Shown in pieces: positions 5,541 through 58,294 of a stretch of DNA of 64,000 nucleotides; the first letter of the stretch is position 1; each line of letters begins with the position of its first letter. Below the pieces are notes generated by a model. That model was not told the DNA's origin. It did not search any database and worked only from the letters and a program-made list of their open reading frames with translations. The stretch spans positions 97-64,096 of the forward strand of contig LBPS01000008.1 in NCBI GenBank assembly GCA_000990325.1, written 5' to 3'. The position numbers and the translations under genes are program-made. Source of the DNA: Candidatus Nomurabacteria bacterium GW2011_GWE2_34_25 (lineage in GTDB: Bacteria; Patescibacteriota; Minisyncoccia; Phycocordibacterales; UBA9973).

Positions 5541-5548
5541 TAAATAAT

Positions 5549-5577
5549 GCCAGCCCTAAGCGTGGCTTAGGACTGGC
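5549..5577 (+). terminator. GC-rich stem-loop after rpoC (gccagccctaagc-gtg-gcttaggactggc)
   Basis: A 13-bp inverted repeat with one mismatch lies immediately 3' of the rpoC stop. No strong T-tract follows. Confidence 0.45.
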
Positions 5578-5598
5578 CGGGCGCAAGTCCTTAAAATT

Positions 5599-7269: not shown

Positions 7270-7270
7270 T

Positions 7271-7296
7271 TTTTTGACATAAGTCCGACTTATGTC
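7271..7296 (+). terminator. Rho-independent-type hairpin (T-run then gacataagt-ccg-acttatgtc)
   Basis: A 9-bp perfect stem with a ccg loop, preceded by TTTTTT. The AAGTCCGACTT core recurs at 46649. Confidence 0.5.
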
Positions 7297-7328
7297 TGGA
7301 AAGTAAAATTAGGTAATTAATCAAAACA

Positions 7329-9098: not shown

Positions 9099-9102
9099 TT
9101 TT

Positions 9103-16123: not shown

Positions 16124-16251
16124 GCAAACGAGTTTCGGTCACAAATCTTTTTCTACTGAAAAAGTTCGCGACCCCGGCTCGGCTCGTCAGCCTGCGCCTT
16201 TCGAATCCTCGTGCCGGCAAAAAAGATGTCATTTAGACATCTTTTTTATTG
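16124..16251 (-). repeat. tRNA-adjacent structured repeat element (copy D), ending in an inverted and a direct copy of the tRNA-Thr 3' end
   Basis: The core on the minus strand (ggctgacgagccgag...ctttttcagtagaaaaag...gtgaccgaaa) is homologous to the cores at 57085, 49320 and 58190. An inverted copy ttcgaatcctcgtgccggc sits at 16200-16218. A direct partial copy gagccggcaaacgag sits at 16126-16140. The hairpin aaaaagatgtc-atttag-gacatcttttt lies internally. Confidence 0.7.
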
Positions 16252-21707: not shown

Positions 21708-21735
21708 TATTCTACAATTCTATAGAATTGTAGAA
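21708..21735. promoter_or_regulatory. 28-bp perfect palindrome ATTCTACAATTCTATAGAATTGTAGAAT (candidate operator) upstream of paralog 2
   Basis: Exactly self-complementary, and 33 bp upstream of the start at 21768. Near-identical palindromes occur at 23493 and 48432, with a half-site at 23789. Confidence 0.7.
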
Positions 21736-21767
21736 TAGATTAATCTTAGATAATATTAATTAAATAT

Positions 21768-23465: not shown

Positions 23466-23492
23466 TAGTTTATTTTATATTATAAATAGTAT

Positions 23493-23520
23493 TCTATAAT
23501 TCTATAGAATTATAGAATAG
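23493..23520. promoter_or_regulatory. 28-bp perfect palindrome ATTCTATAATTCTATAGAATTATAGAAT, 12 bp upstream of the ArsR-like gene
   Basis: Perfectly self-complementary. It shares the TTCTATAGAA core with 21708 and 48432. Confidence 0.7.
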
Positions 23521-23531
23521 AAATAAATATT

Positions 23532-23804
23532 ATGAGAAAAACAAATAGAGAATTAGAAAGAATAGTTAAAGGGTTTGCAAATCACAGAAGAATTGAAATA
23601 TTATTCCTACTAGATAAGAATCCAGATTTGTCTGTTCTTGCGATTTCTGATAGATTGAAGTCTGATTTTAAAAATATTTCAGCTCATATAAGTAAAATGT
23701 ATATTGCGGGACTTTTAGTTAAAAGAAGTATGGGGAATACAGTTTGTCATAAACTTACGAAGCGTGGTAAATCTATTCTACAATTCGTTAGAATTATAGA
23801 ATAG
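23532..23804 (+). CDS. ArsR/SmtB-family winged-helix transcriptional regulator
   Basis: 90 aa containing ANHRRIEILFLL...LSVLAISDRL...NISAHISKMYIAGLL, the ArsR HTH signature. Confidence 0.7.
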   Translation: MRKTNRELERIVKGFANHRRIEILFLLDKNPDLSVLAISDRLKSDFKNISAHISKMYIAGLLVKRSMGNTVCHKLTKRGKSILQFVRIIE

Positions 23805-23833: not shown

Positions 23834-25079
23834 ATGAAAGCGATTGATTTTAAAATAGAAAAAAAGTTGGAAGGATTTTTAGGTAGAGCAGGGACTCTGA
23901 CTACACCTCATGGAGTTATAGAGACTCCATCTTTTGTCGTTGTGGGGACGAAGGGGACAGTCAAAGCTATGACTCCCGAACAGCTCAAGGAGATAGGTGT
24001 GCAAGTTACACTTGCCAATACTTACCATCTTTATTTACAACCAGGAAGTGATTTAGTACGTGAGGCAGGAGGCTTACATAAGTTTATGAATTGGCAGGGG
24101 CCCATGATGACAGACTCTGGTGGATTCCAAGTATTTTCTCTTGGTGTGGCTTACGGCAAAGAGCTTTCCAAAGTTGTTTCTGTAAAGGCTTGCAACCATA
24201 GGGAACGACGGAGTTTCTTTCCGATCACACTTAGATGGATCGCTTCATTATATAACTCCAGAGAAGTCTATCGAGATTCAGCACAACTTAGGAGCCGATA
24301 TTATATTTGCTTTTGATGAATGTACCTCGCCGACAGAAAGTGAACGCTATCAAGATGAAGCATTGTCTCGCACTCACTCTTGGGCCAAGAGGAGTTTGGA
24401 GGAGCATAAGAAACGGGAGGAAGCAAAGCAAGAATATGCGAATTCTTCACGCTTTACCCTAGAGGGGCCCTACGCTGATAAGAATTTTCATATTCCTATT
24501 TCGCCTTGGCCCCAGGCTCTCTTTGGCATTGTCCAAGGAGGACGTAGTGAAGAGCTTAGGAAGAAGTCTGCTAAAGTTATAGGAGAAATGGACTTCGATG
24601 GTTTTGGGATTGGTGGATCTTTTGCCAAAGAGGATATGTCGACTGCTGTAAAGTGGGTCAATGAAGTGCTCCCAGAAGACAAACCTCGCCATTTACTAGG
24701 TATCGGTGAACCGGAAGATCTTTTCTCTGGAGTAGAAAACGGGGTTGATCTTTTTGATTGTGTGGCACCCACTCGTATTGCTCGCAACGGAACGATGTTT
24801 ACAAAGAACGGCAAGATAAATATTTTGAATGCTAAGTTTGTAAAAGATTTTAATCCGATAGACGAAGGGTGCAAGTGTAATACTTGTACAAATTATACTC
24901 GTGCATATCTTTCACACCTCTTTCGTGCTAAAGAAATGCTAGGAGCAACTTTGGCTTCTATTCACAATGTCTACTTTATAACCAATCTAGTAAAACAAAT
25001 GCGCGATGCTATACTAAATGATACGTTTCAAGATTTTAAAAATGAATTTTTAAAAAATTATGACAGACAAAGTATTTAA
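23834..25079 (+). pseudogene. tgt: Queuine tRNA-ribosyltransferase interrupted by a +1 frameshift near 24180 (pseudogene or sequence error)
   Basis: Frame 2 encodes the N-terminal TGT part up to [11 protein letters not shown]. After a TAA at 24183, frame 3 continues with [21 protein letters not shown]...DECTSP... and the C-terminal Zn site CKCNTCTNYTRAYLSHL. The two pieces align end to end with canonical Tgt. Confidence 0.85.
24440..24491 (+). repeat. In-frame palindromic insertion element inside tgt (encodes NSSRFTLEGPYADKNFH)
   Basis: gaattcttcacgctttaccctagaggggccctacgctgataagaattttcat is about 80% identical to a segment inside uvrA at 28637-28690. It is absent from canonical Tgt at this position. 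Confidence 0.65.
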
Positions 25080-27273
25080 ATTAAAGAGTGGGTACAAGCC
25101 CGATGGCGACCAGCCAAAGGCCATAAAAGAGCTTCTGGAAGGTCTTAAGAAGGGTTTTGATAAACAGACGCTCCTAGGTGCTACTGGTACAGGGAAGACT
25201 TTCACGATAGCCAATGTTATCGAAGAGTGGGGGAAGCCGACCTTGGTCATAGCCCACAACAAGACTCTCGCTGCTCAGCTGGCTCAAGAATTTAGGGAGT
25301 TTTTCCCTGATGCCGCTGTACACTATTTTGTGTCTTATTATGATTACTATCAGCCAGAAGCATACATGCCAGTGACCGATACTTATATAGAGAAAGATGC
25401 TCAGATAAACAAAGAGATAGATAGGCTTCGCCATGCCACTACGCAGTCACTTCTTACACGCAAGGACGTTATTATTGTGGCTTCTGTTTCTTGTATTTAT
25501 GGTCTTGGAAGTCCAGAAGAATACGAGAAGGTAAATTTGAAACTTGAAATTGGATCCAAGATTGGAAGGACAGAATTAATGCGAAAGTTACTCGGAGTTC
25601 ATTTTGAAAGAACGAACTCAGACCTTACTCCAGGAACTTTCCGTTCTATTGGAGATAGAGTAGAAGTCATGCCTATATCGGAGACTTTTGTATATCAAAT
25701 AGAATTTGTAGGAGGTGCTATTTCTAAAATTTTAAAAGTAGACCCTGTGTCTGCCCATGTTCTGAAAGAAGAGAGTGGTATTTTCCTTTTTCCAGCCAAG
25801 CACTTTATTACCGAGACAGAGAAAGTAAAAGTGGCATTAAAGAATATTAAACTTGAGCTTACACAACAATTAAAAAAGTTTGAGAAGGAAGGCAAGCTTC
25901 TGGAGGCAGAAAGGATAAAGAGAAGAACCAATTATGATTTAGCAATGATCAAGGAAGTTGGATATTGTAGTGGTATCGAGAATTATAGTAGACAGCTTTC
26001 TGGCAAGAAGGAAGGGGAAGCTCCAGATACACTTCTCTCGTATTTCAAGAGTGATTTCTTAACTATTATCGATGAATCTCATGTGACTCTTCCTCAGCTA
26101 GGTGGTATGTATGCAGGCGATGCTTCTCGCAAGAAGACTCTTGTAGACTTCGGCTTCCGTCTGCCTTCTGCCAAGGACAATAGGCCTCTTAAGTATAATG
26201 AATTTGAAGAAAGAATTGGAGATGTGATATATGTATCAGCAACCCCAAGCGAGACAGAGAGGACAACTAGTGCTCAAGTTGTTGAACAGATTATTCGCCC
26301 AACAGGATTGATAGATCCAGAAATATTGGTAAGACCGGTTTCTGCAACAGAGGCTTCAGAATTTTTGAAAAATAATCGCTTATCCCTACCGAATTCTGAC
26401 AGTAGTCAGAATTCGGCGCGCGTCCACACCTACGATTATTTTTCTAAAAATTCTTTCGCCTCTTATCCTGGCCAAATTGAAGACTTTGTAGAAGAAGCAA
26501 ACCGAGTTATTAAAAAGGGTTTCCGTGCTATTGCTACGACTTTGACCAAGAATATGGCGGAGGACCTAACTTTATTTTTGAAAGAAAAGGGATTCAAAGC
26601 AGAGTACTTACATAGTGATATTAAAACCATAGAGAGAATTCAAATACTTTCTTCTTTTAGAAGAGGGGACTTTGATATTCTTATAGGAGTCAATTTACTC
26701 CGCGAAGGATTAGACTTACCCGAGCTAGCCTTGATAGGAATCTTGGATGCAGACAAGGAAGGTTTCCTTCGTTCGGAAACTTCTCTGATTCAGATTATAG
26801 GAAGAGCTGCTCGAAACGTAGAGGGGAGAGTTGTACTTTATGCTGATCGTATGACCAAGGCCCTAGAGAGTGCCATAGGAGAGACAAATAGAAGAAGAGA
26901 TATCCAGATAGCTTACAACAAGAAGCATGGTATTACTCCCCAGACTATTATAAAAAAGATTAATGATATTACCGAAGAGCTCGAGAACAAGCACGAGAAG
27001 GCGGTGAATGCAGAGCTAGACTTAGATGTAGAATTGTTCAAGAAGACTTTTGTAACAAGTAAAAGTAATAAGGGTAAAGGGGAAAGAGAATCTATCAAGA
27101 ATTTACTTCTTTCAGATGAAGATAGGAACAAATCTATTTATGAAAAAATTATAAAGATAAAAGAGAAGGAAATGAATAAAGCGGTGAAGGAACTAGACTT
27201 CGAAACTGCTGCTATATTACGAGATGAGATTATTATTTTGAATGATAAGTTTTTAAATAAAAATACAAAATAA
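25060..27273 (+). CDS. uvrB: Excinuclease ABC subunit B
   Basis: Walker A GATGTGKTF, helicase motifs, and the C-terminal UvrB/UvrC interaction motif ELDFETAAILRDEI. It carries an extra ~40-aa insertion. Confidence 0.95.
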   Translation: MTDKVFKLKSGYKPDGDQPKAIKELLEGLKKGFDKQTLLGATGTGKTFTIANVIEEWGKPTLVIAHNKTLAAQLAQEFREFFPDAAVHYFVSYYDYYQPEAYMPVTDTYIEKDAQINKEIDRLRHATTQSLLTRKDVIIVASVSCIYGLGSPEEYEKVNLKLEIGSKIGRTELMRKLLGVHFERTNSDLTPGTFRSIGDRVEVMPISETFVYQIEFVGGAISKILKVDPVSAHVLKEESGIFLFPAKHFITETEKVKVALKNIKLELTQQLKKFEKEGKLLEAERIKRRTNYDLAMIKEVGYCSGIENYSRQLSGKKEGEAPDTLLSYFKSDFLTIIDESHVTLPQLGGMYAGDASRKKTLVDFGFRLPSAKDNRPLKYNEFEERIGDVIYVSATPSETERTTSAQVVEQIIRPTGLIDPEILVRPVSATEASEFLKNNRLSLPNSDSSQNSARVHTYDYFSKNSFASYPGQIEDFVEEANRVIKKGFRAIATTLTKNMAEDLTLFLKEKGFKAEYLHSDIKTIERIQILSSFRRGDFDILIGVNLLREGLDLPELALIGILDADKEGFLRSETSLIQIIGRAARNVEGRVVLYADRMTKALESAIGETNRRRDIQIAYNKKHGITPQTIIKKINDITEELENKHEKAVNAELDLDVELFKKTFVTSKSNKGKGERESIKNLLLSDEDRNKSIYEKIIKIKEKEMNKAVKELDFETAAILRDEIIILNDKFLNKNTK
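26355..26475 (+). repeat. In-frame ~120-bp insertion in uvrB containing a 28-bp perfect palindrome (ccgaattctgacagtagtcagaattcgg) plus a segment related to the tgt/uvrA elements
   Basis: The perfect palindrome lies at 26389-26416. The downstream tttctaaaaattctttcgcctcttatcctgg resembles aaaaattcttcgcgctttaccctaaaggg in uvrA. The encoded ASEFLKNNRLSLPNSDSSQNSARVHTYDYFSKNSFASYPG is extra relative to canonical UvrB. Confidence 0.55.
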
Positions 27274-27577: not shown

Positions 27578-30268
27578 ATGAAAAAAGATACAACAGACAA
27601 AATAATAATAAAAGGGGCTAGAACTCACAATTTGAAGAATATTAGTGTTGAGATGCCGAGGAATAAAATGATAGTTATTACTGGTATGTCTGGCTCTGGT
27701 AAGTCTTCTTTGGCATTCGATACTATATTTGCTGAAGGGCAAAGGCGCTATGTGGAGAGTCTCTCTGCTTATGCTCGCCAATTCTTGAACCAAATGCCGA
27801 AGCCAGATGTCGATGAGATTACTGGTCTTTCTCCAGCTATTTCTATCGACCAGAAGTCTAGGTCGAACAATCCTCGTTCAACAGTTGCAACCATCACAGA
27901 GATATATGACTATCTTCGTGTTCTTTATGCACGTATAGGGCATCCTCATTGCCCCGAGTGTGGCAATGAGATTAAGAAACTTTCCAATGATGAAATACTT
28001 CATTTTGCAATAGATAAGATAAAGAATTTTCAAAAGGATAATAAAAACCCCGTAAAAAAGCAAAGCTTTAACGGGGCGAGGAAAGTATTAGGTGTCGAGT
28101 GGAACGAAGCTCCTGTCTCAATTCTTTCTCCGGTAGTTAGAGGTAGGAAAGGTGAGTACTACCAACTTCTTTATGATTTACTCAACAAAGGTTTTGCCGA
28201 GGTTCGTCTAGATGGACAGATCAAGAAACTAAGAGAGAGGATTGATATTACGAAGACAAAAAAGCACGACATAGAAGTTATAGTAGACACATTCCAAATA
28301 CATGAATTCAAAGACAATGAAAAGGATTCATACTCACGTCTAGCAGAGAGTGTCGAGAGAGCCTTACTTGAATCCGATGGCCTTGTAATTATTAAAATAG
28401 ATGAAGACGAGTACCTTATGTCTTCCAAGTTTTCTTGTGCCAACGATGGTTTCGCTTTTCCTGAGATAGAGCCTAGGCTTTTCTCTTTCAATTCCCCATA
28501 TGGAGCTTGTCCTACTTGTAATGGACTTGGTACGAAGTATTTCGGTGGCACAGAACCTTGTGATGATTGTAAGGGTTTGCGATTACGACCTGAAGCACTT
28601 CATGTATATCTAGGTAAATCCGCTCCGCAGAAGCATAAAAATTCTTCGCGCTTTACCCTAAAGGGCTCCGACGCGGATAAGAATTTTCATGTTTCTGCTC
28701 CGCTAAATATTGTAGACGTTACTAAACTTTCCATTTCAGATGTTGCTGACTTTTTTATTGAACTACAGTTGAACGATCAAGAAAAAGAAATTTCAAAAGT
28801 AGTTATCAAAGAGATCGAGGCACGAATTCAGTTTTTACTAAACGTCGGGCTTGATTATTTATCTCTCGACCGAAAAGCCAATACTCTCTCTGGAGGAGAA
28901 GCGCAGAGAATACGTTTGGCTTCCCAGCTTGGTTCACGACTTGTCGGAGCTTTGTATGTGCTCGATGAACCGACGATAGGTTTACATCAGAGAGACAACG
29001 ACAAGCTTATTAAAACCCTTGAGAATCTTCGTGACTTAGGGAACACTATCATTGTCGTAGAGCACGATGAAGATACTATATATGCATCGGATTATATTGT
29101 AGATATAGGCCCGAAGGCTGGAGTACATGGAGGGCAAGTAATAGTGTCGGATTATTTACAAGATTTACTTGATGCACCAAAGAACGTTTCCAATTCTAGA
29201 ACTTTAGCATATCTTAGAAATGAAGCTAGAATAGAAGTTCCGGAGAAAAGAAGAAATAGCGATAAGGGTAGTATCAAAATAATTGGAGGTAAAATTTTCA
29301 ATATTGATAATCTCAATGCTGAGGTTCCTCTAGGTAAGCTTGTCACTATTACGGGAGTATCAGGAAGTGGGAAGAGTTCTTTCATGTATGAGATTATCCA
29401 CAAGAATCTTCAGGCAAGATATGAAAGGAAGTTTAGAACAGCAAAGATTTTCAACTGCGCATCTTTCACTGGGACGGAGTATGCTTCTCGCGTCGTTCTT
29501 ATCGATCAGTCTCCTATAGGCCGTACTCCTCGCTCCAACTTAGCTACTTACACAGGAGCATTTACTCATATCCGTGATATGTTCGCACTTAGTGAAGAAG
29601 CAAGACTGAAAGGTTGGAAAGCCAATAGATTCTCTTTCAATGTGAAGGGTGGACGCTGTGAGGCTTGTGAAGGGAATGGAGAGGTAGCGGTAGAGATGCA
29701 TTTCTTGCCGACTGTTTACGTCACTTGTGATGTTTGTAATGGTAAAAGATTTGACAAAGAGACTTTGACTGTGAAATATAAAAAGAAAAATATTTATGAA
29801 GTTCTTCAAATGACAGTTGAAGAAGCGATAACTTTCTGGGAAGATATTCCCGCTGTGTACGATCGCATGAAGACGCTTATGGAAGTCGGTCTTGGCTATG
29901 TGAAGCTTGGCCAGTCTGCTACAACTCTTTCGGGTGGAGAAGCACAACGCGTAAAAATTTCTTCAGAATTATTTAGACCGTATGAAGAGAAGACTATTTA
30001 TCTACTAGATGAGCCGACAGTTGGACTTCATTATGATGACGTAGCAAAGTTGCTTGAAGTTTTGAATAGACTTGTGAATAAGGGCAACAGCGTAGTAGTT
30101 ATAGAGCACAATATGGATATTATAAAATGTTCAGATCACATTATAGATATCGGCCCCGAAGGTGGTCTCGGTGGTGGCAAGATTGTAGCAAAGGGAACTC
30201 CTGAAGAAGTTGCTAATAATAAAAATTCACACACTGGTAAATATCTTAAGAAAGTTTTGAAAAAATAG
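27578..30268 (+). CDS. uvrA: Excinuclease ABC subunit A
   Basis: Two ABC ATPase modules (GMSGSGKSSL, GVSGSGKSS, LSGGEAQR x2) and Zn-finger CxxC pairs. Confidence 0.95.
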   Translation: MKKDTTDKIIIKGARTHNLKNISVEMPRNKMIVITGMSGSGKSSLAFDTIFAEGQRRYVESLSAYARQFLNQMPKPDVDEITGLSPAISIDQKSRSNNPRSTVATITEIYDYLRVLYARIGHPHCPECGNEIKKLSNDEILHFAIDKIKNFQKDNKNPVKKQSFNGARKVLGVEWNEAPVSILSPVVRGRKGEYYQLLYDLLNKGFAEVRLDGQIKKLRERIDITKTKKHDIEVIVDTFQIHEFKDNEKDSYSRLAESVERALLESDGLVIIKIDEDEYLMSSKFSCANDGFAFPEIEPRLFSFNSPYGACPTCNGLGTKYFGGTEPCDDCKGLRLRPEALHVYLGKSAPQKHKNSSRFTLKGSDADKNFHVSAPLNIVDVTKLSISDVADFFIELQLNDQEKEISKVVIKEIEARIQFLLNVGLDYLSLDRKANTLSGGEAQRIRLASQLGSRLVGALYVLDEPTIGLHQRDNDKLIKTLENLRDLGNTIIVVEHDEDTIYASDYIVDIGPKAGVHGGQVIVSDYLQDLLDAPKNVSNSRTLAYLRNEARIEVPEKRRNSDKGSIKIIGGKIFNIDNLNAEVPLGKLVTITGVSGSGKSSFMYEIIHKNLQARYERKFRTAKIFNCASFTGTEYASRVVLIDQSPIGRTPRSNLATYTGAFTHIRDMFALSEEARLKGWKANRFSFNVKGGRCEACEGNGEVAVEMHFLPTVYVTCDVCNGKRFDKETLTVKYKKKNIYEVLQMTVEEAITFWEDIPAVYDRMKTLMEVGLGYVKLGQSATTLSGGEAQRVKISSELFRPYEEKTIYLLDEPTVGLHYDDVAKLLEVLNRLVNKGNSVVVIEHNMDIIKCSDHIIDIGPEGGLGGGKIVAKGTPEEVANNKNSHTGKYLKKVLKK
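28622..28703 (+). repeat. In-frame ~80-bp near-perfect palindromic insertion inside uvrA (encodes APQKHKNSSRFTLKGSDADKNFHVS)
   Basis: ccgcagaagcataaaaattcttcgcg...cgcggataagaattttcatgtttctgctccgc has arms of ~25 bp that are reverse complements. Its core matches the tgt element at 24440. The region is extra relative to canonical UvrA. Confidence 0.7.
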
Positions 30269-38662: not shown

Positions 38663-40306
38663 ATGAAAAAGATTTGTGAACATTGCCAGAAAGAATTCAT
38701 TATTACTGATATAGAGAAATCTTTAAGTGAAAAGATTGGACTAGAATTATCTACCGTCTGTTCAAGGTGTCTTTTAAAACAGCAGTTGTCTTTTTGGTTA
38801 TTTGGTAAATTTCGTAAAAGTAAATCTGATTTATCAGGTGAGAGTTTTATAACTGTATTACCAGAAAGTCGTTATCCACTTTACTCACTAAAGGAATGGT
38901 ATAGTGATGCTTGGGATGCGATGGATTACGGAGCGAAATACAATCCAAGTGAATCATTTTTTAAACAACTACAATCTCTTCAAGAGAAAGTTCCTCACCC
39001 TCATCAAAATGGAATTAATAATACAGGATGTGATTATTGTGATGATGTTTGGAGTTGCAAGAATTGTTATTTAGCTCGATCTATGGTTGATTGTGAAGAT
39101 CTTTTATATTCTTACCGAAACATTAAGGTTAAAAATTCTATAGATGTAGCTATATGCTTTAGTTCCGAGAGATGTTTTTGTTCTCTTAATTGTATGAATT
39201 CATATAAACTTTTCTATTCTAGAGATTCAAAAGATTGCATAGATTCATATTTTCTTTTTGATTGTCGCAACTGCCAGAATTGCTTCATGTGCTGTAATTT
39301 AAGAGGGAAGAGTTATTGTATAGAGAATGTACAGTATACAAAAGAAGAATACAATGAAAAACTAAAAGATTTTAATTTAGGTTCATATTCTCAAATTAAA
39401 CTGTTTAAAGAACATTTTGAAGAAATGCTTAAAAATGTAGCAATCCATAGATTAAATTTTAATCTTAAAACTTATAATTCTACTGGTAACAATTTATTAA
39501 ATGTAAATAATTGTATAAATTGTAATACTATTTCTGATTCAGAAGATTGTGTTAATTGTACAAGAGGTACTAAAACCAAATCCTCTTTAAATTATGCTGG
39601 ATGTTTTGAAGGAGAGTTGCTAGGTAGTTGTAGTGGTTGTGTGAATGCATATAATTTGAAATATTCTTCTTGGTCTTCGTCAAGATATTCTGAATATTTG
39701 GATTTGTGTATTGACTGTGAATATTGTTTTGGCTGTGTGGGGCTTAAGAAGAAAAAGTATTGTATTTTAAACAAGCAATACACCAAAGAAGAGTATGAAA
39801 AATTAAAAGATGAAATTATAAATAAAATGAAAGAAGACGGAGAGTATGGCAAGTTCTTACCTTACTCTATGAGTCCAGGACCATTCAATTTCTCAACTAG
39901 TTATTTATATTTCCCCAATACGACCAAGGAAGAAATTTTGAAATTGGGTGGTTATTGGCAAGACATAGATGAAAGCAATATAGAGGGTATGTCCACAAGT
40001 GAATTGCCTGACTCTATAGATGATGTGGATGAAAGTATTTGTACCAAAGCATTGATTTGTCCTCTGACTGGTTGGCGTTTCAATATTTCCAACAATGAAT
40101 TAGGATTTTATAAACAGTACAATATTCCACTTCCTCGTAAGCATTTTGATGTAAGAATAAAAGATCTGTTGAAATATTCAACTGTACTAGAAACAACTCC
40201 ATATAATTGTTATTATTGCAAAAACAAAATAGAAGCTTTTTATCCGAGTGAATGGGGGTACAAGAATATTGCTTGCGAAAGTTGTTATCAACAGAATTTA
40301 AACTAA
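38663..40306 (+). CDS. Cys-rich repeat protein with terminal zinc ribbons (paralog 3 of 4, more divergent)
   Basis: 547 aa. N-terminal CEHCQKEFII...VCSRCL, internal CRNCQNCFMCCNLRGKSYCIENVQYTKEEYNEKL and CEYCFGCVGLKKKKYCILNKQYTKEEYEKL repeats, and a C-terminal ...NIACESCYQQNLN. It starts 40 bp after the ATPase at 37130. Confidence 0.75.
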   Translation: MKKICEHCQKEFIITDIEKSLSEKIGLELSTVCSRCLLKQQLSFWLFGKFRKSKSDLSGESFITVLPESRYPLYSLKEWYSDAWDAMDYGAKYNPSESFFKQLQSLQEKVPHPHQNGINNTGCDYCDDVWSCKNCYLARSMVDCEDLLYSYRNIKVKNSIDVAICFSSERCFCSLNCMNSYKLFYSRDSKDCIDSYFLFDCRNCQNCFMCCNLRGKSYCIENVQYTKEEYNEKLKDFNLGSYSQIKLFKEHFEEMLKNVAIHRLNFNLKTYNSTGNNLLNVNNCINCNTISDSEDCVNCTRGTKTKSSLNYAGCFEGELLGSCSGCVNAYNLKYSSWSSSRYSEYLDLCIDCEYCFGCVGLKKKKYCILNKQYTKEEYEKLKDEIINKMKEDGEYGKFLPYSMSPGPFNFSTSYLYFPNTTKEEILKLGGYWQDIDESNIEGMSTSELPDSIDDVDESICTKALICPLTGWRFNISNNELGFYKQYNIPLPRKHFDVRIKDLLKYSTVLETTPYNCYYCKNKIEAFYPSEWGYKNIACESCYQQNLN

Positions 40307-46756: not shown

Positions 46757-48421
46757 ATGGAAACAAAGACTTGTCAAAACTGTAAAAATGACTTCATAAT
46801 TGAGCCAGATGACTTTTCTTTCTATGAGAAAATGAAAGTTCCTGTACCTAAAATTTGTCCAGATTGTCGCTTTAAAATGAGGGCAATGTGGAGAAATGAG
46901 ATGAGTATGTATTCAGGACGAAAGTGCGGTTTATGTGGCAAAAGTGTATTATCTATTTACAATCTCAAATCCCCATTTACAACATATTGTTATGAATGTT
47001 TTTATTCTGAAAAATGGAGTCCCAAAGATTATGCAACTCTATACGATAAGTCACGACCATTCTTTGATCAAATGGGGGAGTTTTTAATTAAAGTTCCTAA
47101 GATAAATTTAGGTATTTCTACTGGAGATGGACCAAATATAAATAGTGAATATGTGAATATGGCTGGAGGATGCAAGAATTGTTATCTTGTTTTTAATACA
47201 AGTCCTGCTGAAGAATTACTTTATTCTAGGGGTGTAAAGAGTGGTATTTTTTCTTCTGACATTTATTTTGGAGTGAAGTTTGAGAACTGTTACGATTGCG
47301 TGAGTATTCAAGAATCAGCCAATGTTTTCTGGGGACAAAACATTATGGGCTGTGTAGATTCCTATTTTATTTTAAATGGTAGTGGTCTCACGAATTGTTT
47401 TGGCTGTGTTAATTTAAGGAATAAAAGTAATTGTTGGTTTAATGAGCAATTAACTTCCGAAGAATATAAAACAAGATTGGGTGAAGTTATGGGTAGCTAT
47501 TCAAAAATATTAGAAGCTCGCAAGAAATTTGAAGAATTTTGTTTACAGCATCCACATAAAGAGAACAATAATTTAAAAACGATAAATTCTGTGGGGGACT
47601 ACTTAACTGAATGCAAAAATGTTGTAAATTCTTTTGAAGTGGCAAAATCAGAAGATTGTCGTTATATTTTTTCATCTAAAATGATTAAGGATTCTTTGGG
47701 AACAACTGGATTTGGGACAAAATCTGAAAGATTACTTGAAGTTGTTGCGACTGGACATTCTAGTAATATTATAGGTTCTTATTGGGCGGAAAATTGTAGT
47801 AATGTAATGTATTCTTTTGATTTGAGAAATTGCCATGATTGTATAGGGTGTGACGCTCTAAAGAATGGTAAATATGCCATTTTTAACAAAGAATATTCAA
47901 AGGAAGAATACGAGGAATTAAAGGCTCATATTGTTAAAGAGCTTACAGAACAGGGGATACATGGGCTCATGATGCCAGTAATTATCGCTCCATTTGCATA
48001 CAATGAAACAATTGCTCAAGATAATTTCTCACTAACCAAAGAGGAAGCATTGGCCCAAGGCTATAGGTGGGAAGATGATATACAGATGACTAAGGGCAAG
48101 GATACAATACAGCTAGATGACATAGAAGATAATATCAAAGATATTAGAGATTCTATAACAAGTGAAATATTGAAATGCATCTCTTGCGAAAGGAATTATA
48201 AGATTACGGAGCAAGAGCTACTTTTTTACAGAAAAATGGTCCTACCTATTCCTCGTCAGTGTTTCTATTGTCGTCATCAGGATAGAATAAAAAGGCGAGG
48301 TCCATATAAATTCTGGGATAGGAAATGTGATCATTGTGATAAAGATATTAAAACCAATTATTCACCAGAACGTAAGGAAATAATATACTGCGAGAAGTGT
48401 TATCAGCAGGAAGTAATATAG
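46757..48421 (+). CDS. Cys-rich repeat protein with terminal tandem zinc ribbons (paralog 4 of 4)
   Basis: 554 aa. N-terminal CQNCKNDFIIEPDDFSFYEKMKVPVPKICPDCR...RKCGLCG, C-terminal CISCERNYKI...FYRKMVLPIPRQCFYCR...CDHCDKDIKTNYSPERKEIIYCEKCYQQEVI, and internal CHDCIGCDALKNGKYAIFNKEYSKEEYEEL repeats. Confidence 0.8.
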   Translation: METKTCQNCKNDFIIEPDDFSFYEKMKVPVPKICPDCRFKMRAMWRNEMSMYSGRKCGLCGKSVLSIYNLKSPFTTYCYECFYSEKWSPKDYATLYDKSRPFFDQMGEFLIKVPKINLGISTGDGPNINSEYVNMAGGCKNCYLVFNTSPAEELLYSRGVKSGIFSSDIYFGVKFENCYDCVSIQESANVFWGQNIMGCVDSYFILNGSGLTNCFGCVNLRNKSNCWFNEQLTSEEYKTRLGEVMGSYSKILEARKKFEEFCLQHPHKENNNLKTINSVGDYLTECKNVVNSFEVAKSEDCRYIFSSKMIKDSLGTTGFGTKSERLLEVVATGHSSNIIGSYWAENCSNVMYSFDLRNCHDCIGCDALKNGKYAIFNKEYSKEEYEELKAHIVKELTEQGIHGLMMPVIIAPFAYNETIAQDNFSLTKEEALAQGYRWEDDIQMTKGKDTIQLDDIEDNIKDIRDSITSEILKCISCERNYKITEQELLFYRKMVLPIPRQCFYCRHQDRIKRRGPYKFWDRKCDHCDKDIKTNYSPERKEIIYCEKCYQQEVI

Positions 48422-48431
48422 ATAATATCTG

Positions 48432-48459
48432 TTCTCTAATTCTATAGAATTGTAGAATA
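48432..48459. promoter_or_regulatory. Near-perfect palindrome TTCTCTAATTCTATAGAATTGTAGAATA, 10 bp upstream of the methyltransferase gene
   Basis: One mismatch from perfect symmetry. It belongs to the same motif family as 21708 and 23493. Confidence 0.65.
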
Positions 48460-49245: not shown

Positions 49246-49291
49246 TTAATAACAAAAAGCTACTTCTCAAATAGCTCTCTTTGATAGCGTA

Positions 49292-49397
49292 TTCTTGAAT
49301 AGTCTTATCAGAGGGGCCGGCGGAGAGTGACGACTCGAGCAATGAGCAAATTTTCAGCAGAAAATTATGCGGACCCTCTGAGAAGAGCTATTCAAGA
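49292..49397 (+). repeat. Structured repeat element copy A (~105 bp), with terminal inverted repeats tcttgaatagtcttatcagagggg / ccctctgagaagagctattcaaga
   Basis: The core ggcggagagtgacgactcgagcaatgagcaaattttcagcagaaaattatgcgg is homologous to the cores at 57085 and 58190 (reverse complement) and 16140 (reverse complement). It lies between convergent genes. Confidence 0.75.
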
Positions 49398-49406
49398 AGA
49401 AGCTTA

Positions 49407-55466: not shown

Positions 55467-56600
55467 ATGCAAAACAAATCACTTTCATACATAGAAATCT
55501 CAAAAGATAATTTGATACACAATATCAGGCAGTTTAGAGTTCTTTTGAAGAATAAGACGAAAATTGCTGTAGTGGTGAAGGCCAATGCTTACGGTCATGG
55601 AGACATGGAGGTAGCCAAGATCGTAAATCCTTACGTGGATTATTTTCAGGTAGATAGTATAGAGGAGGCCGAGAGAGTAAGAAAGGTAAGCAAGAAACCT
55701 ATTCTAATATTTGGATATACAAATGAAGATGGGGTAAAAAGAGCTATAAAGATAGGGGCGATAATTTCTGCTTTTGATTTGATACATCTTTTGAAGATTA
55801 ATCGTGTTGCAGAAATTTCTAAAAAGAAAATAAAAGTTCATCTTGCGATAGATTCGTATTTAGGCAGAGAGGGTATCATGCCTTCTCAAGTAGAGAATAT
55901 AATAAAAGAAATAAAAAATTTAAATAATATAGTTTTAGATGGAGTATATTCACATTTTGCAAACATCGAGGATACAATGAATTCTACTCATGCCAACAGA
56001 CAGATAGATACATATCATAAGTGTGTAGAGATTTTTAGGGAAAATGGTTACAAAAATATCAATACACACATATCAGCGACTTCAGGGATTTTGGTTTATG
56101 AAAAAGGGGATAATTTACACAGTATTGTTCGTCTTGGTATTGGGCTTTATGGTATGTGGCCAAGTGAACACTTGGAATATTTGAATAAAAAGAAAATAAA
56201 TTTGAAGCCAGTTTTGAAATGGGTCACTCATGTTGCTCAAGTGAAAGTTATCCCTGCCAATCATCCCATAGGTTATGGTCTGACTTACATTACCAAGAAA
56301 GCGACCAAGATAGCCGTCATTCCTCAGGGCTATTACGATGGGCTCACGCGTTCAATGTCTAATAATGGGGAATTCTTGATAAGAGGCAAAAAAGCGAAGA
56401 TTATAGGCCGAGTTGCCATGAATATGATCGTAGTAGATGTATCACACATTAAAGATGTTCGAGCAGATGATGAGGTGGTTATAATAGGCATACAAGGTAA
56501 AGCTAAAATCACAGCTGAAGATATGGCGAAAAGGATGGATACTATAAATTATGAAGTAACTACGAAAATAAGTGCCTTATTGCCAAGAGTGATTATATAA
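55467..56600 (+). CDS. alr: Alanine racemase
   Basis: PLP-lysine motif AVVKANAYGHG and a C-terminal beta domain. It starts 5 bp after ddl. Confidence 0.88.
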   Translation: MQNKSLSYIEISKDNLIHNIRQFRVLLKNKTKIAVVVKANAYGHGDMEVAKIVNPYVDYFQVDSIEEAERVRKVSKKPILIFGYTNEDGVKRAIKIGAIISAFDLIHLLKINRVAEISKKKIKVHLAIDSYLGREGIMPSQVENIIKEIKNLNNIVLDGVYSHFANIEDTMNSTHANRQIDTYHKCVEIFRENGYKNINTHISATSGILVYEKGDNLHSIVRLGIGLYGMWPSEHLEYLNKKKINLKPVLKWVTHVAQVKVIPANHPIGYGLTYITKKATKIAVIPQGYYDGLTRSMSNNGEFLIRGKKAKIIGRVAMNMIVVDVSHIKDVRADDEVVIIGIQGKAKITAEDMAKRMDTINYEVTTKISALLPRVII

Positions 56601-56710
56601 AAGGTGAAAATGTTTAAAATTTACGAGTAGGTGTGGGCGCGCCGTAGCGTAACGAAGTGAAGCGGAGAGGGATAAGCGAGTAAATTTGAAACATTTTCAC
56701 CTTTTATATA
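56593..56710. repeat. 118-bp palindromic element: ~33-bp near-perfect inverted repeats (ttatataaaaggtgaaaatgtttaaaatttacgag) flanking a 48-bp G+C-rich centre containing GGCGCGCC
   Basis: The arms are reverse complements with one mismatch. The centre (gtgggcgcgccgtagcgtaacgaagtgaagcggagagggataagcgag) shares the gcggagag...cgag motif with the repeat cores at 49320 and 57090. Confidence 0.7.
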
Positions 56711-56750
56711 CTAGTTGCATTTTTATGAGTTTTATAGTATTGTATGCAAT

Positions 56751-56909
56751 ATGTCACAAGATAGACTTTTCAAATTAGGCTGTACTAAATGCAAGCGCAT
56801 TAACTACTGGTCAAGCAAAAACAAGAAACTCGTTACTAAAAAGATCGAGCTCAAGAAGTATTGCAAATGGTGTAAAGTAAACACTAAACACAAAGAGGTT
56901 AAAAAGTAA
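56751..56909 (+). CDS. rpmG: 50S ribosomal protein L33
   Basis: 52 aa with Cys pairs (LGCTKCKRINYWSSKNKK...KKYCKWCKVNTKHKEVK). The classic rpmG with tRNA-Trp arrangement. Confidence 0.85.
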   Translation: MSQDRLFKLGCTKCKRINYWSSKNKKLVTKKIELKKYCKWCKVNTKHKEVKK

Positions 56910-56936
56910 AAAATCCCCATCTGGGGATTTTTTACT
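56908..56936 (+). terminator. Rho-independent terminator aaaaatcccca-tctg-gggattttt
   Basis: A perfect stem with flanking A and T runs immediately after the rpmG stop. Confidence 0.8.
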
Positions 56937-56962
56937 TTTTATGCTATATTATGTACGTTATT

Positions 56963-57033
56963 GGGCGATTAGTTTAGTGGTAGAACGATGGTCTCCAAAA
57001 CCATTGGTGGGGGTCCGATTCCTCCATCGCCCG
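56963..57033 (+). tRNA. tRNA-Trp (anticodon CCA)
   Basis: Acceptor GGGCGAT/ATCGCCC, anticodon stem ATGGT/ACCAT, loop CTCCAAA, and T arm GGGGG-TCCGATT-CCTCC. Confidence 0.85.
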
Positions 57034-57035
57034 CA

Positions 57036-57182
57036 AGAAAATAAACAAGATGTTATCTTGTCTATTTTAGATGGAAGAATCGGAAGACGGAGGCTGACGA
57101 GCCGAGTTGGGGTCGAGAGATTTTTCAGCAGAAAAATAATCGTGACCGAAAGTGTAATCACGATTCCTCCATCGTTCGCAGT
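57036..57182 (+). repeat. tRNA-adjacent structured repeat element (copy C), with an inverted and a direct copy of the tRNA-Trp 3' end
   Basis: Hairpin aacaagat-gtt-atcttgt, inverted copy gatggaagaatcg, core ggaggctgacgagccgagttggggtcgagagatttttcagcagaaaaataatcgtgaccgaaag, then direct copy cgattcctccatcgttcg (compare tRNA cgattcctccatcgcccg). Same layout as copy D at tRNA-Thr. Confidence 0.75.
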
Positions 57183-58136
57183 TTATTTCAAAAACTTTTT
57201 TATTTCTTTCAAAGCTTTTGCTTCTTCAGATTTTTTAGTTGGATTTATCCAAATAGTATTTAAATCACGCTTAAACCATGTTTTTTGGCGTTTGGCATAG
57301 TGCCATGTTTCAGTATTTATTTTTTCTATCATATCATCTCTTGAAATTTTCTTTTGTAAATACTGTGCCCCATATCTATATTCAAGTCCTAGAGCCTCCA
57401 TTCTCTTCCATGACAATCCAGCCTTATGAAGATTCTCAATCTCTTTCAGCATTCCTTTCTTAATACGGGCAAGTAGGCGAGCCTGGATTCTCTCTTTTAG
57501 TATTTCATCTGGTACAGTAAGTCCAATTTTTAAAACCTCAAATTTCGGGAGTTTAGAAACCTCTACAAACTCTGCCATGGCAGAGTTTGTAGAGGTTTTA
57601 TTATTTATTATTTTAGGGATTTTACCCAAGGCTTTAGCTATTTCTATAGCACGAATTAGGCGGACAGGATTGTTTATATCAATATTTTTTGCTCTCTCTT
57701 TATCTAACTTTTTTAATATTTTAAAAAGTTCCCCCGTAGATTTTTTAGAAAGTTCTTCGCGAAGTTCCTTATTGGGAGGGACTTCAGGGAAGGTTACTCC
57801 ATTTACAACTGCATCTATGTAGAAGCCTGTACCACCACAAATTATTGGAATCTTTTTATTTTTTATTATTTTTTTGATTTTCTTATCGACGAGTTTTTTA
57901 AAATCAGAGACAGTAAAAACTTTTTTTGGTGAAGCTACATCAAGCAAATGGTGAAGCACACCCTTCCTCTCTTTCTTTGTTATTTTCCCTGTACCCAAGT
58001 CCATACCTTTATACACTTGCCTAGAATCAGCAGAGATTATTTCTCCTCCTATTTCTTTAGCAACTTCCACAGCAAAATCACTCTTACCAGTGGAAGTTTG
58101 ACCTAGAATTACAATAATTTTGGGCTTTATTTTCAT
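57183..58136 (-). CDS. miaA: tRNA dimethylallyltransferase
   Basis: P-loop IIVILGQTSTGKS and motif DSRQVYKGMDLGTGK. The start is chosen at MKIKPK. The longer ORF upstream merely translates repeat copy B. Confidence 0.88.
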   Translation of the reverse strand: MKIKPKIIVILGQTSTGKSDFAVEVAKEIGGEIISADSRQVYKGMDLGTGKITKKERKGVLHHLLDVASPKKVFTVSDFKKLVDKKIKKIIKNKKIPIICGGTGFYIDAVVNGVTFPEVPPNKELREELSKKSTGELFKILKKLDKERAKNIDINNPVRLIRAIEIAKALGKIPKIINNKTSTNSAMAEFVEVSKLPKFEVLKIGLTVPDEILKERIQARLLARIKKGMLKEIENLHKAGLSWKRMEALGLEYRYGAQYLQKKISRDDMIEKINTETWHYAKRQKTWFKRDLNTIWINPTKKSEEAKALKEIKKFLK

Positions 58137-58164
58137 TTTGTGTGTGAATATATAAATTAGCTTC

Positions 58165-58262
58165 TTTCGAAATGCACACATAATTTTCTGCTGAAAATTT
58201 GCTCTTCTCGACCCGTCGGTCTCCGAAAGGCATTTCTTAAGAACTAATTTATATATTCGCAT
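58165..58262 (-). repeat. Structured repeat element copy B (minus-strand orientation) in the miaA upstream region
   Basis: The reverse complement reads ggagaccgacgggtcgagaagagcaaattttcagcagaaaattatgtgtgc. A 26-bp stretch is identical to copy A. It is flanked by imperfect inverted repeats (ctttcgaaatgc / gcatttcttaag). Confidence 0.7.
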
Positions 58263-58294
58263 AAATATCACTTTTTTGCTATAATCAATCTATT

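What the first reader, a model, noticed from the sequence alone, without database searches (positions are those of the whole stretch)
56593..56710. 118-bp palindromic element with 33-bp arms and a G+C-rich 48-bp centre (contains GGCGCGCC) between alr and rpmG
ttatataaaaggtgaaaatgtttaaaatttacgag and its reverse complement flank gtgggcgcgccgtagcgtaacgaagtgaagcggagagggataagcgag. The centre is strikingly G+C-rich for this genome and shares gcggagag...cgag with the cores of the repeat family. This suggests a fifth, rearranged member or a related MITE. It would fold as a 33-bp stem with a structured apical domain, possibly a small RNA or an attenuator for rpmG.
Basis: seen in the sequence. Interest (0 to 1): 0.55.

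Follow-up and report, generated by a model that had tools for sequence, protein, structure and literature searches.

The report
Mobile hairpin repeat of CPR bacteria
The palindrome between alr and rpmG is one copy of a large family of about 100-base hairpin repeats, not found in the literature searched, that is spread through the tiny genomes of Patescibacteria, comes and goes at the same few sites (even in frame inside DNA-repair genes), and is not a regulator of rpmG.

Summary
There is a 31-bp inverted repeat (one mismatch) around a 55-nt GC-rich centre. It is identical in four independent assemblies and none is expected by chance.

It is not a rearranged member of the window's other repeat family. 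It belongs to a distinct family of over 130 copies in low-GC CPR/Patescibacteria contigs. Each copy has:
- a long AT-rich stem whose sequence differs between copies but stays paired;
- a closing CGAG/CGAG (tandem G·A) module;
- a near-invariant purine-rich internal loop (UAGGUGUGGGCGCG / AGGGAUAAGCG);
- a variable apical hairpin.

A second copy sits in frame in uvrB in this window, as a 43-aa insert.

In relatives, the alr–rpmG spacer holds the element in either orientation, or another palindromic family, or nothing. A promoter-like block next to rpmG is kept in every case. So it is an insertion-polymorphic, probably selfish hairpin element, similar in behaviour to Rickettsia palindromic elements and REPs. 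It is not an rpmG attenuator or sRNA.

Mismatch patterns show that one strand is selected to fold, which points to a single-stranded intermediate. The mobilising enzyme is unknown; a Y1 (IS200/RAYT-like) transposase found in related contigs is only a candidate. The same sites in uvrA, uvrB and tgt carry interchangeable elements in close relatives, and uvrC and tsaD each host a copy in related contigs.

The parts
56588..56716 (+). Whole palindromic element (129 nt) in its widest extent; motif strand is the + strand
   Evidence: Stem extension, 35 of 40 positions paired. R1 covariance model gives 82.8 bits, E 5e-19, for 56608-56696.
56594..56624 (+). Left arm of the long stem (P1); overlaps the alr stop codon TAA at 56598-56600
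56625..56627 (+). GAG: 5' half of the closing module. It pairs with CGA at 56677-56679 as G.A, A.G, G-C.
   Evidence: GAG/CGA in 85 copies, replaced by Watson-Crick TCG/CGA in 26 copies. Columns 18-20 with 83-85.
56628..56641 (+). Conserved 5' strand of the internal loop, TAGGTGTGGGCGCG (GGCGCGCC spans 56636-56643)
   Evidence: Near-invariant in 94 aligned copies. TAGGTGTGGGC was imposed by the search pattern, but copies found independently keep at least 90% of it. U21.G82 changes to C-G in L157, L112 and L142.
56642..56665 (+). Variable apical hairpin P2 (CCGTAGCGTAACGAAGTGAAGCGG; GCGUAAC-GAA-GUGAAGC with G.A/A.G pairs)
   Evidence: 71 distinct central segments. Several are clean Watson-Crick hairpins, for example GCAAGC-TAAT-GCTTGC and CCGAATCC-GCTG-GGATTCGG.
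56666..56676 (+). Conserved 3' strand of the internal loop, AGAGGGATAAG
56677..56679 (+). CGA: 3' half of the closing module
56680..56710 (+). Right arm of P1
55467..56600 (+). alr (alanine racemase). The position of its stop codon is conserved in 12 relatives.
56715..56750 (+). Conserved promoter-like block TTGCAT..TTTTATAGTAT directly upstream of rpmG and downstream of the element
   Evidence: Conserved in all relatives, whatever occupies the spacer. Not called by the strict sigma-70 scan. Promoter function is inferred.
56751..56909 (+). rpmG (ribosomal protein L33), followed by its own terminator hairpin at 56900-56941
26338..26472 (-). Second family member in the window, in frame inside uvrB. 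Encodes a 43-aa insert between residues 427 and 429 of B. caldotenax UvrB.
   Evidence: R1 gives 62 bits for 26359-26453, minus strand. PDB alignment. Sequence and translation.
24430..24497 (-). Short sister-family element, in frame in tgt
28629..28696 (-). Short sister-family element, in frame in uvrA; 83% identical to the tgt copy
   Evidence: (D14).

Best explanation
The element is one copy of a dispersed, non-coding, insertion-polymorphic hairpin repeat found in CPR/Patescibacteria genomes. I estimate very roughly 20 copies per genome.

How I think it works:
- The unit that is copied is the whole palindrome. The arms only need to pair. The conserved asymmetric internal loop plus the CGAG/CGAG module is probably what a trans-acting enzyme recognises (inferred).
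- Copying probably goes through a single-stranded form in which the motif strand folds (inferred).
- In a densely coding genome, copies survive only where a 90-130-nt hairpin is tolerated. That means immediately after stop codons and, if the copy is stop-free and a multiple of three, in surface loops of proteins. The same sites are therefore used again and again, and elements there get flipped or replaced.
- At this locus the copy is a passenger between the alr stop codon and the rpmG promoter-like block. At most it acts incidentally as a hairpin terminator or insulator for alr transcripts (inferred).

Shown: family membership, structure and covariation, strand asymmetry, presence/absence and replacement at orthologous sites, and in-frame copies.
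Inferred: selfish mobility, a single-stranded intermediate, and the enzyme.
For: Family size and structure:
- 133 pattern matches in 127 low-GC contigs.
- R1 hits up to 92 bits, with 2-4 copies on some contigs.
- Outer stem is 89% paired; 18 of 20 pairs show double changes; covariation score 0.775 against 0.159 when shuffled and at most 0.26 when slid.

Strand asymmetry:
- G.T 51 against A.C 21 (p 5e-4), and purine-purine 32 against pyrimidine-pyrimidine 6.
- The motif strand folds better than its complement in 95 of 96 copies.

alr-rpmG spacer in 12 relatives:
- same orientation: window, L160, L142, L223;
- inverted: L107 type at 92% Alr identity, and L226;
- empty: L165;
- other palindromic families: L181, L213.

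In-frame copies:
- The same sites in uvrB, uvrA and tgt in related contigs, plus single sites in uvrC and tsaD.
- Among 120 close UvrB homologues, at least 25 have the site empty, 10-11 carry this family, and about 65 carry other inserts.
- In relatives at 88-92% UvrB identity, the tgt, uvrB and uvrA sites carry different palindromic families, or nothing.

Other:
- Two short-form copies in different genes of the window are 83% identical, arms included.
- Y1_Tnp genes occur in three related contigs.
Against: - No target-site duplication or conserved target motif was found.
- No autonomous parent element was found. There is no demonstrated link between this family and the Y1_Tnp genes, whose flanking hairpins are different.
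- Arms and apical hairpins of vertically inherited in-ORF copies keep pairing through compensated changes, for example window against L120 uvrB. This could mean selection at the locus. It could also come from template-switch self-correction or gene conversion.
- The core is highly conserved even in copies found independently of the search pattern. A host function would also explain that.
- No whole genome could be surveyed, so copy number is only an estimate.
Confidence: 0.7

Rival explanations
1. A host-serving cis element. The hairpin, with its conserved purine-rich loop, would be a recruited RNA or DNA module kept by the host at gene ends. Possible roles are a bidirectional terminator, a protector of mRNA 3' ends, an RNase III or protein-binding site, or a chromosomal protein-binding site. 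Its mobility would then be secondary.
For: - Intergenic copies lie within about 0-15 nt of a stop codon.
- The outer arm consensus reads A-tract, G/C-containing base, T-tract.
- The core is very strongly conserved across CPR lineages, and pairing is maintained in orthologous copies.
- The loop strands contain non-canonical-pair modules typical of protein-binding RNA.
Against: - The site can be empty, or filled by unrelated families, in close relatives.
- Orientation relative to neighbouring genes is mixed. In tandem-gene contexts 27 copies are antisense and 12 sense; in ORFs 9 are in each orientation. Most transcripts would therefore carry the complement of the conserved loop.
- The terminator scan does not call this element.
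- Copies inside ORFs cannot act as terminators.
Confidence: 0.2
2. One reading: a small RNA, or a leader/attenuator, that controls rpmG.
For: - It lies 41 nt upstream of the rpmG start, on the same strand.
- It has a very stable fold.
- The left arm contains an SD-like AAGGTG followed by ATG.
Against: - The closest sequenced relative (92% Alr identity) carries it inverted.
- L165 lacks it.
- L181 and L213 carry other families at the same place.
- A conserved TTGCAT..TATAGTAT block lies between the element and rpmG in every case.
- There is no promoter asymmetry on the motif side across 80 copies.
- There is no Rfam match.
- The same element also sits inside uvrB.
Confidence: 0.03
3. A rearranged member of the window's other repeat family (the GGCTGACGAG...TTTTCAGCAGAAAA elements at 16133, 49290, 57074 and 58141).
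For: - It shares GCGGAGAG..GA..CGAG.AAATTT with 49290-49400.
- It has the same lifestyle: a member of that family occupies the alr-rpmG site in L181.
Against: - The R1 model does not hit those copies even with filters off and E up to 10.
- The architecture differs: those elements have a longer core with an internal TTTTCAGCAGAAAA hairpin.
- More than 130 true relatives of the finding share none of those features.
Confidence: 0.04

Closest known systems
Rickettsia palindromic elements (RPE; Ogata et al. 2000, recalled from memory)
   Same: - Palindromic repeats of about 100-150 nt, dispersed in a small, streamlined genome.
- Found both between genes and in frame inside housekeeping genes, where they add a peptide segment without destroying the protein.
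- No transposase of their own, and no clear target-site duplication.
   Different: - The host phylum is unrelated (Patescibacteria), and sequence similarity was not tested.
- Here the conserved part is a central asymmetric loop, while the arms vary freely.
- The same sites are repeatedly emptied, flipped or refilled by several families in close relatives.
REP / REPIN elements with RAYT (Y1 HUH) transposases (PMC3116915, PMC3479197)
   Same: - Short hairpin-forming repeats near gene ends, with many copies.
- Strand-specific folding, as expected for a single-stranded DNA substrate.
- A GTAG word (in GAGTAGG) next to a hairpin.
- Y1_Tnp genes flanked by small hairpins occur in related contigs.
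   Different: - REPs are extragenic; these also sit in ORFs.
- In REPINs the paired REP arms are the conserved part and the middle varies. Here it is the reverse.
- The hairpins flanking the Y1_Tnp genes (..TAGG-CAAGA-CCTA..) are not this family.
- The match to NCBIfam REP_Tyr_transpos is below its cut-off (41-42 bits against 80).
Bacterial MITEs (Correia/NEMIS, RUP, ERIC; recalled from memory)
   Same: Small, non-autonomous palindromic repeats that can be co-transcribed with neighbouring genes and can form long RNA hairpins.
   Different: MITEs have conserved terminal inverted repeats and a target-site duplication, and derive from an identifiable IS. None of these three features was found here.
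Intrinsic (rho-independent) bidirectional terminators
   Same: Position just after a stop codon, and an A-tract / stem / T-tract outline in about half of the copies.
   Different: - The stem is 30-40 bp and AT-rich, and the 'loop' is a 55-nt structured core.
- The terminator scan does not call it.
- Copies also occur inside ORFs.

Membership tests
New CPR hairpin-repeat family (defined here by model R1) | Long variable paired stem, CGAG/CGAG or TCG/CGA closure, UAGGUGUGGGCGCG, apical hairpin, AGGGAUAAGCG | tested here: met
   56608-56696 scores 82.8 bits, E 5e-19. It was one of the 94 sequences used to build the model, so the independent support comes from the 116+26 hits in other contigs.
Window's other repeat family (16133, 49290, 57074, 58141) | Core GGCTGACGAG..CGAG plus internal hairpin ATTTTCAGCAGAAAAT | tested here: not met
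   The internal hairpin and the CTGACGAG word are absent from 56588-56716. Only GCGGAGAG..CGAG is shared. R1 does not match those copies.
Rickettsia palindromic elements | Dispersed palindromic repeat of 100-150 nt with copies in frame in protein-coding genes | tested here: met
   43-aa clean insert in UvrB against PDB 2fdc. In-frame copies in uvrA, uvrB, uvrC, tgt and tsaD.
Rickettsia palindromic elements | Sequence homology to the RPE-1..n consensus; Rickettsiales host | not tested
   No RPE reference sequences were at hand. The host here is a Nomurabacteria-like CPR MAG, so membership by descent is unlikely. The claim is 'works like', not 'is'.
REP/REPIN-RAYT | Conserved GTAG head 5' of a short imperfect palindrome; conserved arms with a variable spacer | tested here: not met
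   GTAG occurs inside the loop (GAGTAGG), not at the 5' end. The arms vary and the centre is conserved.
REP/REPIN-RAYT | Exclusively extragenic | tested here: not met
   18 of 111 copies span long ORFs.
REP/REPIN-RAYT | A RAYT gene flanked by copies of the same repeat | tested here: not met
   Y1_Tnp genes in L204, L214 and L242 are flanked by a different small hairpin, AGGCAAGACCT. The window's own genome could not be searched.
MITE | Conserved terminal inverted repeats and a target-site duplication | tested here: not met
   The outermost arm sequence is copy-specific. Flanking direct repeats are no longer than expected by chance.
Intrinsic terminator | Short GC-rich stem, 3-8-nt loop, U-tract | tested here: not met
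   Not reported by the scan. Only the rpmG terminator at 56900-56941 is reported.
Any Rfam 15 family (including ribozymes, 6S, SRP, leaders) | Covariance-model match | tested here: not met
   Nothing at gathering score in the window. Nothing meaningful at E up to 10 for 56500-57250.
Integron attC site | Conserved R''/L''...L'/R' boxes (RYYYAAC...GTTRRRY) at the ends of an imperfect palindrome, just after a cassette ORF | tested here: not met
   By reading the sequences, the ends are variable and show no GTTRRRY or RYYYAAC boxes. No dedicated pattern search was run, and no integrase context was seen.

The most novel reading that the evidence does not exclude
Patescibacteria may carry a previously undescribed system of interchangeable hairpin 'cassettes'. 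It has at least five sequence families, including this one. The cassettes repeatedly occupy, flip, replace and vacate the same few positions, both just after stop codons and in frame in loops of UvrA, UvrB and Tgt (UvrC and TsaD also host copies). One strand is selected to fold, with tandem G.A modules and a near-invariant purine-rich loop. This would imply a dedicated single-strand machinery, possibly a RAYT-like Y1 enzyme or an RNA-based route, that targets specific sites rather than inserting at random. It might also imply a host use for the elements.
Probability: 0.35. Interest if true: 0.75.

Novelty: new variant of a known kind. Interest (0 to 1): 0.62.

Why it matters
CPR/Patescibacteria genomes are among the smallest and most streamlined known, and selfish repeats are not expected to thrive in them. 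Here a hairpin repeat family is spread across several CPR lineages and tolerated inside essential DNA-repair and tRNA-modification proteins. It turns over faster than about 10% protein divergence.

This matters for four reasons:
- Annotation: 20-55-aa 'variable loops' in CPR proteins may be mobile DNA rather than protein evolution.
- Strain typing: the sites are presence/absence markers.
- Mobile-element biology: the conserved-centre, free-arm architecture, the strand-specific fold and the site re-use all need a mechanism.
- Experiment: a defined about 50-nt core is a ready bait for finding the enzyme or binding protein.

For the original question, it removes a false lead: this is not an rpmG riboregulator.

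Tried and rejected
1. Known RNA families. Rfam at gathering score and at E up to 10 found nothing. A hammerhead-like reading of the neighbouring CUGACGAG family also got no Rfam support.
2. Own promoter. Counts of -10 and -35-like words upstream of the motif strand equal those on the other side. The sigma-70 scan finds none near the element.
3. Target-site duplication or target motif. None was found.
4. Host terminator idea. I considered that the outer arms were a pre-existing host terminator into whose loop the element had inserted. The empty site in L165 has no such hairpin.
5. Phage origin. Two viral-contig pattern hits lack stems and are not matched by R1.
6. Apical hairpin thermodynamics. 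The z-scores are weak (mean -0.9), because many P2 stems rely on G.A pairs. Support for P2 is therefore qualitative.
7. 5S rRNA relationship.
   - This copy shares four 8-mers and thirteen 6-mers with E. coli 5S rRNA (p about 1e-4 to 3e-3).
   - Only 19% of family cores show such a signal.
   - The matched helix IV words are E. coli-specific.
   - No CPR 5S sequence was available.
   - This is left unexplained and is not claimed.
8. First G.T / A.C count. The first count (102 against 34) was biased by my stem-extension rule. It was redone with Watson-Crick-only scoring (51 against 21).
9. Link to Y1_Tnp. The alignment between the L242 uvrB insert and the hairpin flanking the Y1_Tnp gene is weak (22 of 30).
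10. Literature. Six full-text searches found no description of such elements in CPR.
11. First genome scan. The pattern was too loose; most of the 118 hits were chance matches in high-GC genomes.
Full report
**1. The observation**

The sequence is as described. Arms 56594-56624 and 56680-56710 are 31 nt long with one mismatch, and they enclose 55 nt. With weaker outer pairs the palindrome spans 56588-56716. The centre holds GGCGCGCC (56636-56643) and reaches 65% GC, in a window that averages 27-41%.

The arm sequence matches only its partner, with 0 expected in shuffles. Both strands fold far better than shuffled controls: -41.4 kcal/mol (z -6.2) and -35.8 kcal/mol (z -8.5).

The flanking genes are alr and rpmG, by Pfam. 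The alr stop codon (56598-56600) lies inside the left arm. The same sequence is present in four independent assemblies, so it is not an assembly artefact. The window comes from MAG GCA_003446925.1. Its closest named relatives are Candidatus Nomurabacteria.

**2. What it belongs to**

The core recurs, reverse-complemented and with entirely different arms, inside the uvrB ORF at about 26360-26455.

A pattern scan of GTDB genomes found mostly chance hits in high-GC genomes. It also found seven true relatives in low-GC CPR MAGs labelled Nomurabacteria, Parcubacteria, Paceibacterota and Saccharibacteria. In all there are 133 copies in 127 loci, 120 of them unique. The median stem is 29 bp, the median length 103 nt, and the median locus GC 0.36.

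The shared architecture is:
- a long AT-rich stem that is different in every copy;
- a closing GAG/CGA module (tandem G.A/A.G plus G-C; 85 copies), or Watson-Crick TCG/CGA (26 copies);
- a 5' loop strand UAGGUGUGGGCGCG;
- a variable apical hairpin (71 distinct versions);
- a 3' loop strand (G/U)AGGGAUAAGCG.

On an alignment of 94 copies the 20-bp proximal stem is 89% paired, and 18 of 20 pairs show changes on both sides. Its covariation score is 0.775, against 0.159 for shuffles and at most 0.26 for slid controls. Part of the core's invariance was imposed by my search pattern. However, copies found independently on the same contigs keep at least 90% of it.

A covariance model (R1) run over the whole window with filters off finds only two real members: the finding (82.8 bits) and the uvrB copy (62 bits). 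Two shorter in-frame elements in tgt and uvrA score marginally. They are a sister family (GAG-UCGCGUCGGAGCCCUU-UAGGGUAAAGCG-CGA) that is also seen between genes elsewhere.

The window's other repeat family (16133, 49290, 57074, 58141) is not matched. It shares only a short GC-rich word with the finding.

**3. One strand matters**

Stems were redefined with Watson-Crick-only scoring, to remove a bias in my first count. Mismatches on the motif strand are then G.T 51 against A.C 21 (p 5e-4; 32 against 12 by copy). Purine-purine mismatches number 32, against 6 pyrimidine-pyrimidine.

The motif strand is predicted to be more stable than its complement in 95 of 96 copies with RNA parameters (-41.0 against -32.5 kcal/mol) and in 92 of 96 with DNA parameters. 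The U.G pair next to the closing G-C becomes C-G in variants.

So the strand that carries UAGGUGUGG... is the one selected to fold, either as RNA or as single-stranded DNA.

Three observations argue against an ordinary RNA gene or a cis-regulator:
- There is no promoter signal specific to the motif side.
- The motif strand is more often antisense to neighbouring genes (27 against 12 in tandem-gene contexts) and more often on the locally C-rich strand (44 against 21, p 0.006).
- Copies in ORFs are split 9 to 9 between the two orientations.

**4. Behaviour at orthologous sites**

*alr-rpmG spacer.* Twelve contigs carry the same alr-rpmG junction. The position of the alr stop codon is conserved in all of them. 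So is a block TTGCAT...TTTTATAGTAT just upstream of rpmG. What lies between them varies:

| Contig(s) | Alr identity to window | Spacer content |
|---|---|---|
| window, L160 | 100%, 86% | This family, same orientation, similar arms, different apical hairpin |
| L142, L223 | 75%, 79% | This family, same orientation, other arms and core subtype |
| L107 type | 92% | Same apical subtype as the window, but inverted and with other arms |
| L226 | 75% | This family, inverted |
| L165 | 78% | Nothing (TAA-TC-TTGC) |
| L181 | 74.5% | A member of the TTCAGCAGAA family |
| L213 | 75.5% | A third palindromic family |

The arms are absent from the empty site, so they belong to the insert.

*uvrB.* The window's UvrB has a clean 43-aa insertion between residues 427 and 429 of B. 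caldotenax UvrB. Among the 120 closest UvrB homologues (75-99% identity), this exact site is:
- empty in at least 25;
- occupied by this family, always in the same orientation (NRLSL...RAHTYDF), in 10-11;
- occupied by other 20-55-aa inserts, of several recurrent types, in about 65.

*Close relatives at the DNA level*:

| Contig | UvrB identity | uvrB site | tgt site | uvrA site |
|---|---|---|---|---|
| window | 100% | This family | Short form | Short form |
| L242 | 92% | Different palindrome | Short form | Short form |
| L243 | 89% | Empty | A fourth family | A fifth family |
| L244 | 88% | The fifth family | Similar to the fourth family | Not determined |
| L120, L207 | not measured | This family | This family (L120) | This family |

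L207 also carries this family in uvrC, and tsaD hosts it in L015 and L138.

*Recent copying.* The two short-form copies in the window (tgt and uvrA) are 83% identical over about 85 nt, arms included. This is what copying from one site to another would leave.

**5. Interpretation**

The element is an insertion-polymorphic, multi-copy hairpin repeat. The simplest reading is a selfish, non-autonomous mobile element.
- Its conserved loop would be the recognition module for a trans-acting enzyme.
- Its arms need only pair.
- Its surviving copies are restricted, by selection in a dense genome, to stop-codon-proximal positions and permissive protein loops. This would explain the re-use of sites.

Flips and mosaic copies could arise in several ways: re-insertion, ectopic conversion between palindromic copies (which can align in either orientation), or template switching within quasi-palindromes. 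The last is an established mutational mechanism, and it would also keep arms complementary without selection. These steps are inferred, not shown.

The strand-specific fold suggests a single-stranded intermediate. A 218-aa Y1_Tnp (IS200/RAYT-like) gene is present in three related contigs, including the closest relative. It scores 40-45 bits in Pfam (above the cut-off) and 41-42 bits against NCBIfam REP_Tyr_transpos (below its cut-off of 80). It is flanked by small hairpins of its own. Those hairpins are a different sequence and are rare, so the enzyme is a candidate class only.

At this locus the element lies upstream of the conserved promoter-like block. It is therefore most likely part of the alr 3' end and may act as an incidental hairpin terminator. 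The outer-arm consensus reads A-tract, stem, T-tract, but the terminator scan does not call it.

**6. Comparison with known elements, and novelty**

In behaviour it is closest to Rickettsia palindromic elements (in-frame copies in housekeeping genes) and to REP/REPIN elements (strand-specific hairpins near gene ends). It fails the defining features of the following:
- REP/REPIN: GTAG head at the 5' end, conserved arms, extragenic location, flanking RAYT gene.
- MITEs: conserved termini and a target-site duplication.
- Intrinsic terminators.
- attC sites.
- Every Rfam family.

Six full-text literature searches found no description of such elements in CPR. The library is incomplete, so this is not proof of novelty.

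I rate it a new variant of a known kind. The finding itself is 'just' one repeat copy, but the family and its cassette-like turnover inside UvrA, UvrB and Tgt are unexpected.

**7. Limits**

The copy number of very roughly 20 per genome is extrapolated from one copy per 32-42 kb.
- No expression data exist.
- RNA and single-stranded DNA cannot be told apart.
- The enzyme is unidentified.
- Translation of the inserts is inferred only from their being stop-free and in frame.

Noticed in passing
window 16133-16210 (-), 57074-57151 (+), 49290-49400, 58141-58263; L181 about 1500-1720: A second palindromic family (core GGCTGACGAGCCGAG..GGGGTCG..ATTTTTCAGCAGAAAAA..GTGACCGAAA). Two copies lie just downstream of tRNA-Thr and tRNA-Trp. 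Their outer arms copy the 3' end of the neighbouring tRNA, once inverted and once direct, as with att sites of tRNA-targeting integrative elements. The CUGAnGA...GAAA words look hammerhead-like, but Rfam gives no hit.
   Followed up: partly
window 24183-24190 (tgt, ORFs 23834-24316 and 24363-25079): tgt is split by a frameshift caused by a 53-nt deletion relative to the 92%-related genome L242, so it is probably a pseudogene in this MAG.
   Followed up: yes
UvrB homologues P0001-P0120; L242 6279-6368, L243 6261-6323, L244 6261-6413: One loop of UvrB (after VRP, before GQIEDF) is a hot spot. In proteins 75-99% identical it is either empty or holds any of at least six recurrent insert types of 20-55 aa. 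The ones inspected at the DNA level are palindromic.
   Followed up: partly
L242 1-575; L214 4840-5579; L204 4116-4832: Y1_Tnp (IS200/RAYT-like) genes of 218-220 aa, flanked by small hairpins with a CAAGA loop (for example AAAACCGACTAGG-CAAGA-CCTAGTCGGTTTT). In L242 the gene sits between rpsB and a tRNA synthetase gene, a junction that is uninterrupted in the window.
   Followed up: partly
window 56628-56679 against E. coli rrf: This copy's core shares CCGTAGCG, GAAGTGAA, GAGTAGG and GTGTGGG with E. coli 5S rRNA (13 shared 6-mers, p about 1e-4 against shuffles). Type-2 cores share GCGAG.GTAGGGA with the 3' strand of 5S loop E. Only 19% of family cores show such a signal, and no CPR 5S sequence was available. 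It may be coincidence.
   Followed up: partly
window 21708-21737, 23490-23519, 23774-23803, 48430-48459: A 30-bp near-perfect palindrome, TATTCTACAATTCTATAGAATTGTAGAATA, recurs next to four paralogous ORFs of about 550-565 aa (5599-7269, 21768-23465, 38663-40306, 46757-48421). It looks like a shared operator site.
   Followed up: no
window 57557-57598: A perfect 19-bp hairpin (AAACCTCTACAAACTCTGC....GCAGAGTTTGTAGAGGTTT) lies inside the miaA ORF. It may be another in-frame palindromic insert.
   Followed up: no
window 56602-56630: The left arm of this copy reads AAGGTGAAAATG TTT AAA ATT TAC GAG TAG: an SD-like site followed by a 6-codon mini-ORF that ends in the conserved TAG of the core. This was seen in this copy only, so it is probably fortuitous.
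   Followed up: no
L213 about 4840-4945 and 5243-9364: At the alr-rpmG site L213 carries a third palindromic family (core CTTCCTCCTTAACCCCATTCCTCGCGATTACGCTCGGAACGGCACGCCCCCGCCCGTCGG). Nearby are ORFs that, from their N-terminal sequences alone, look like a large serine recombinase and a primase (not checked against a domain library). They may belong to an integrated element.
   Followed up: no
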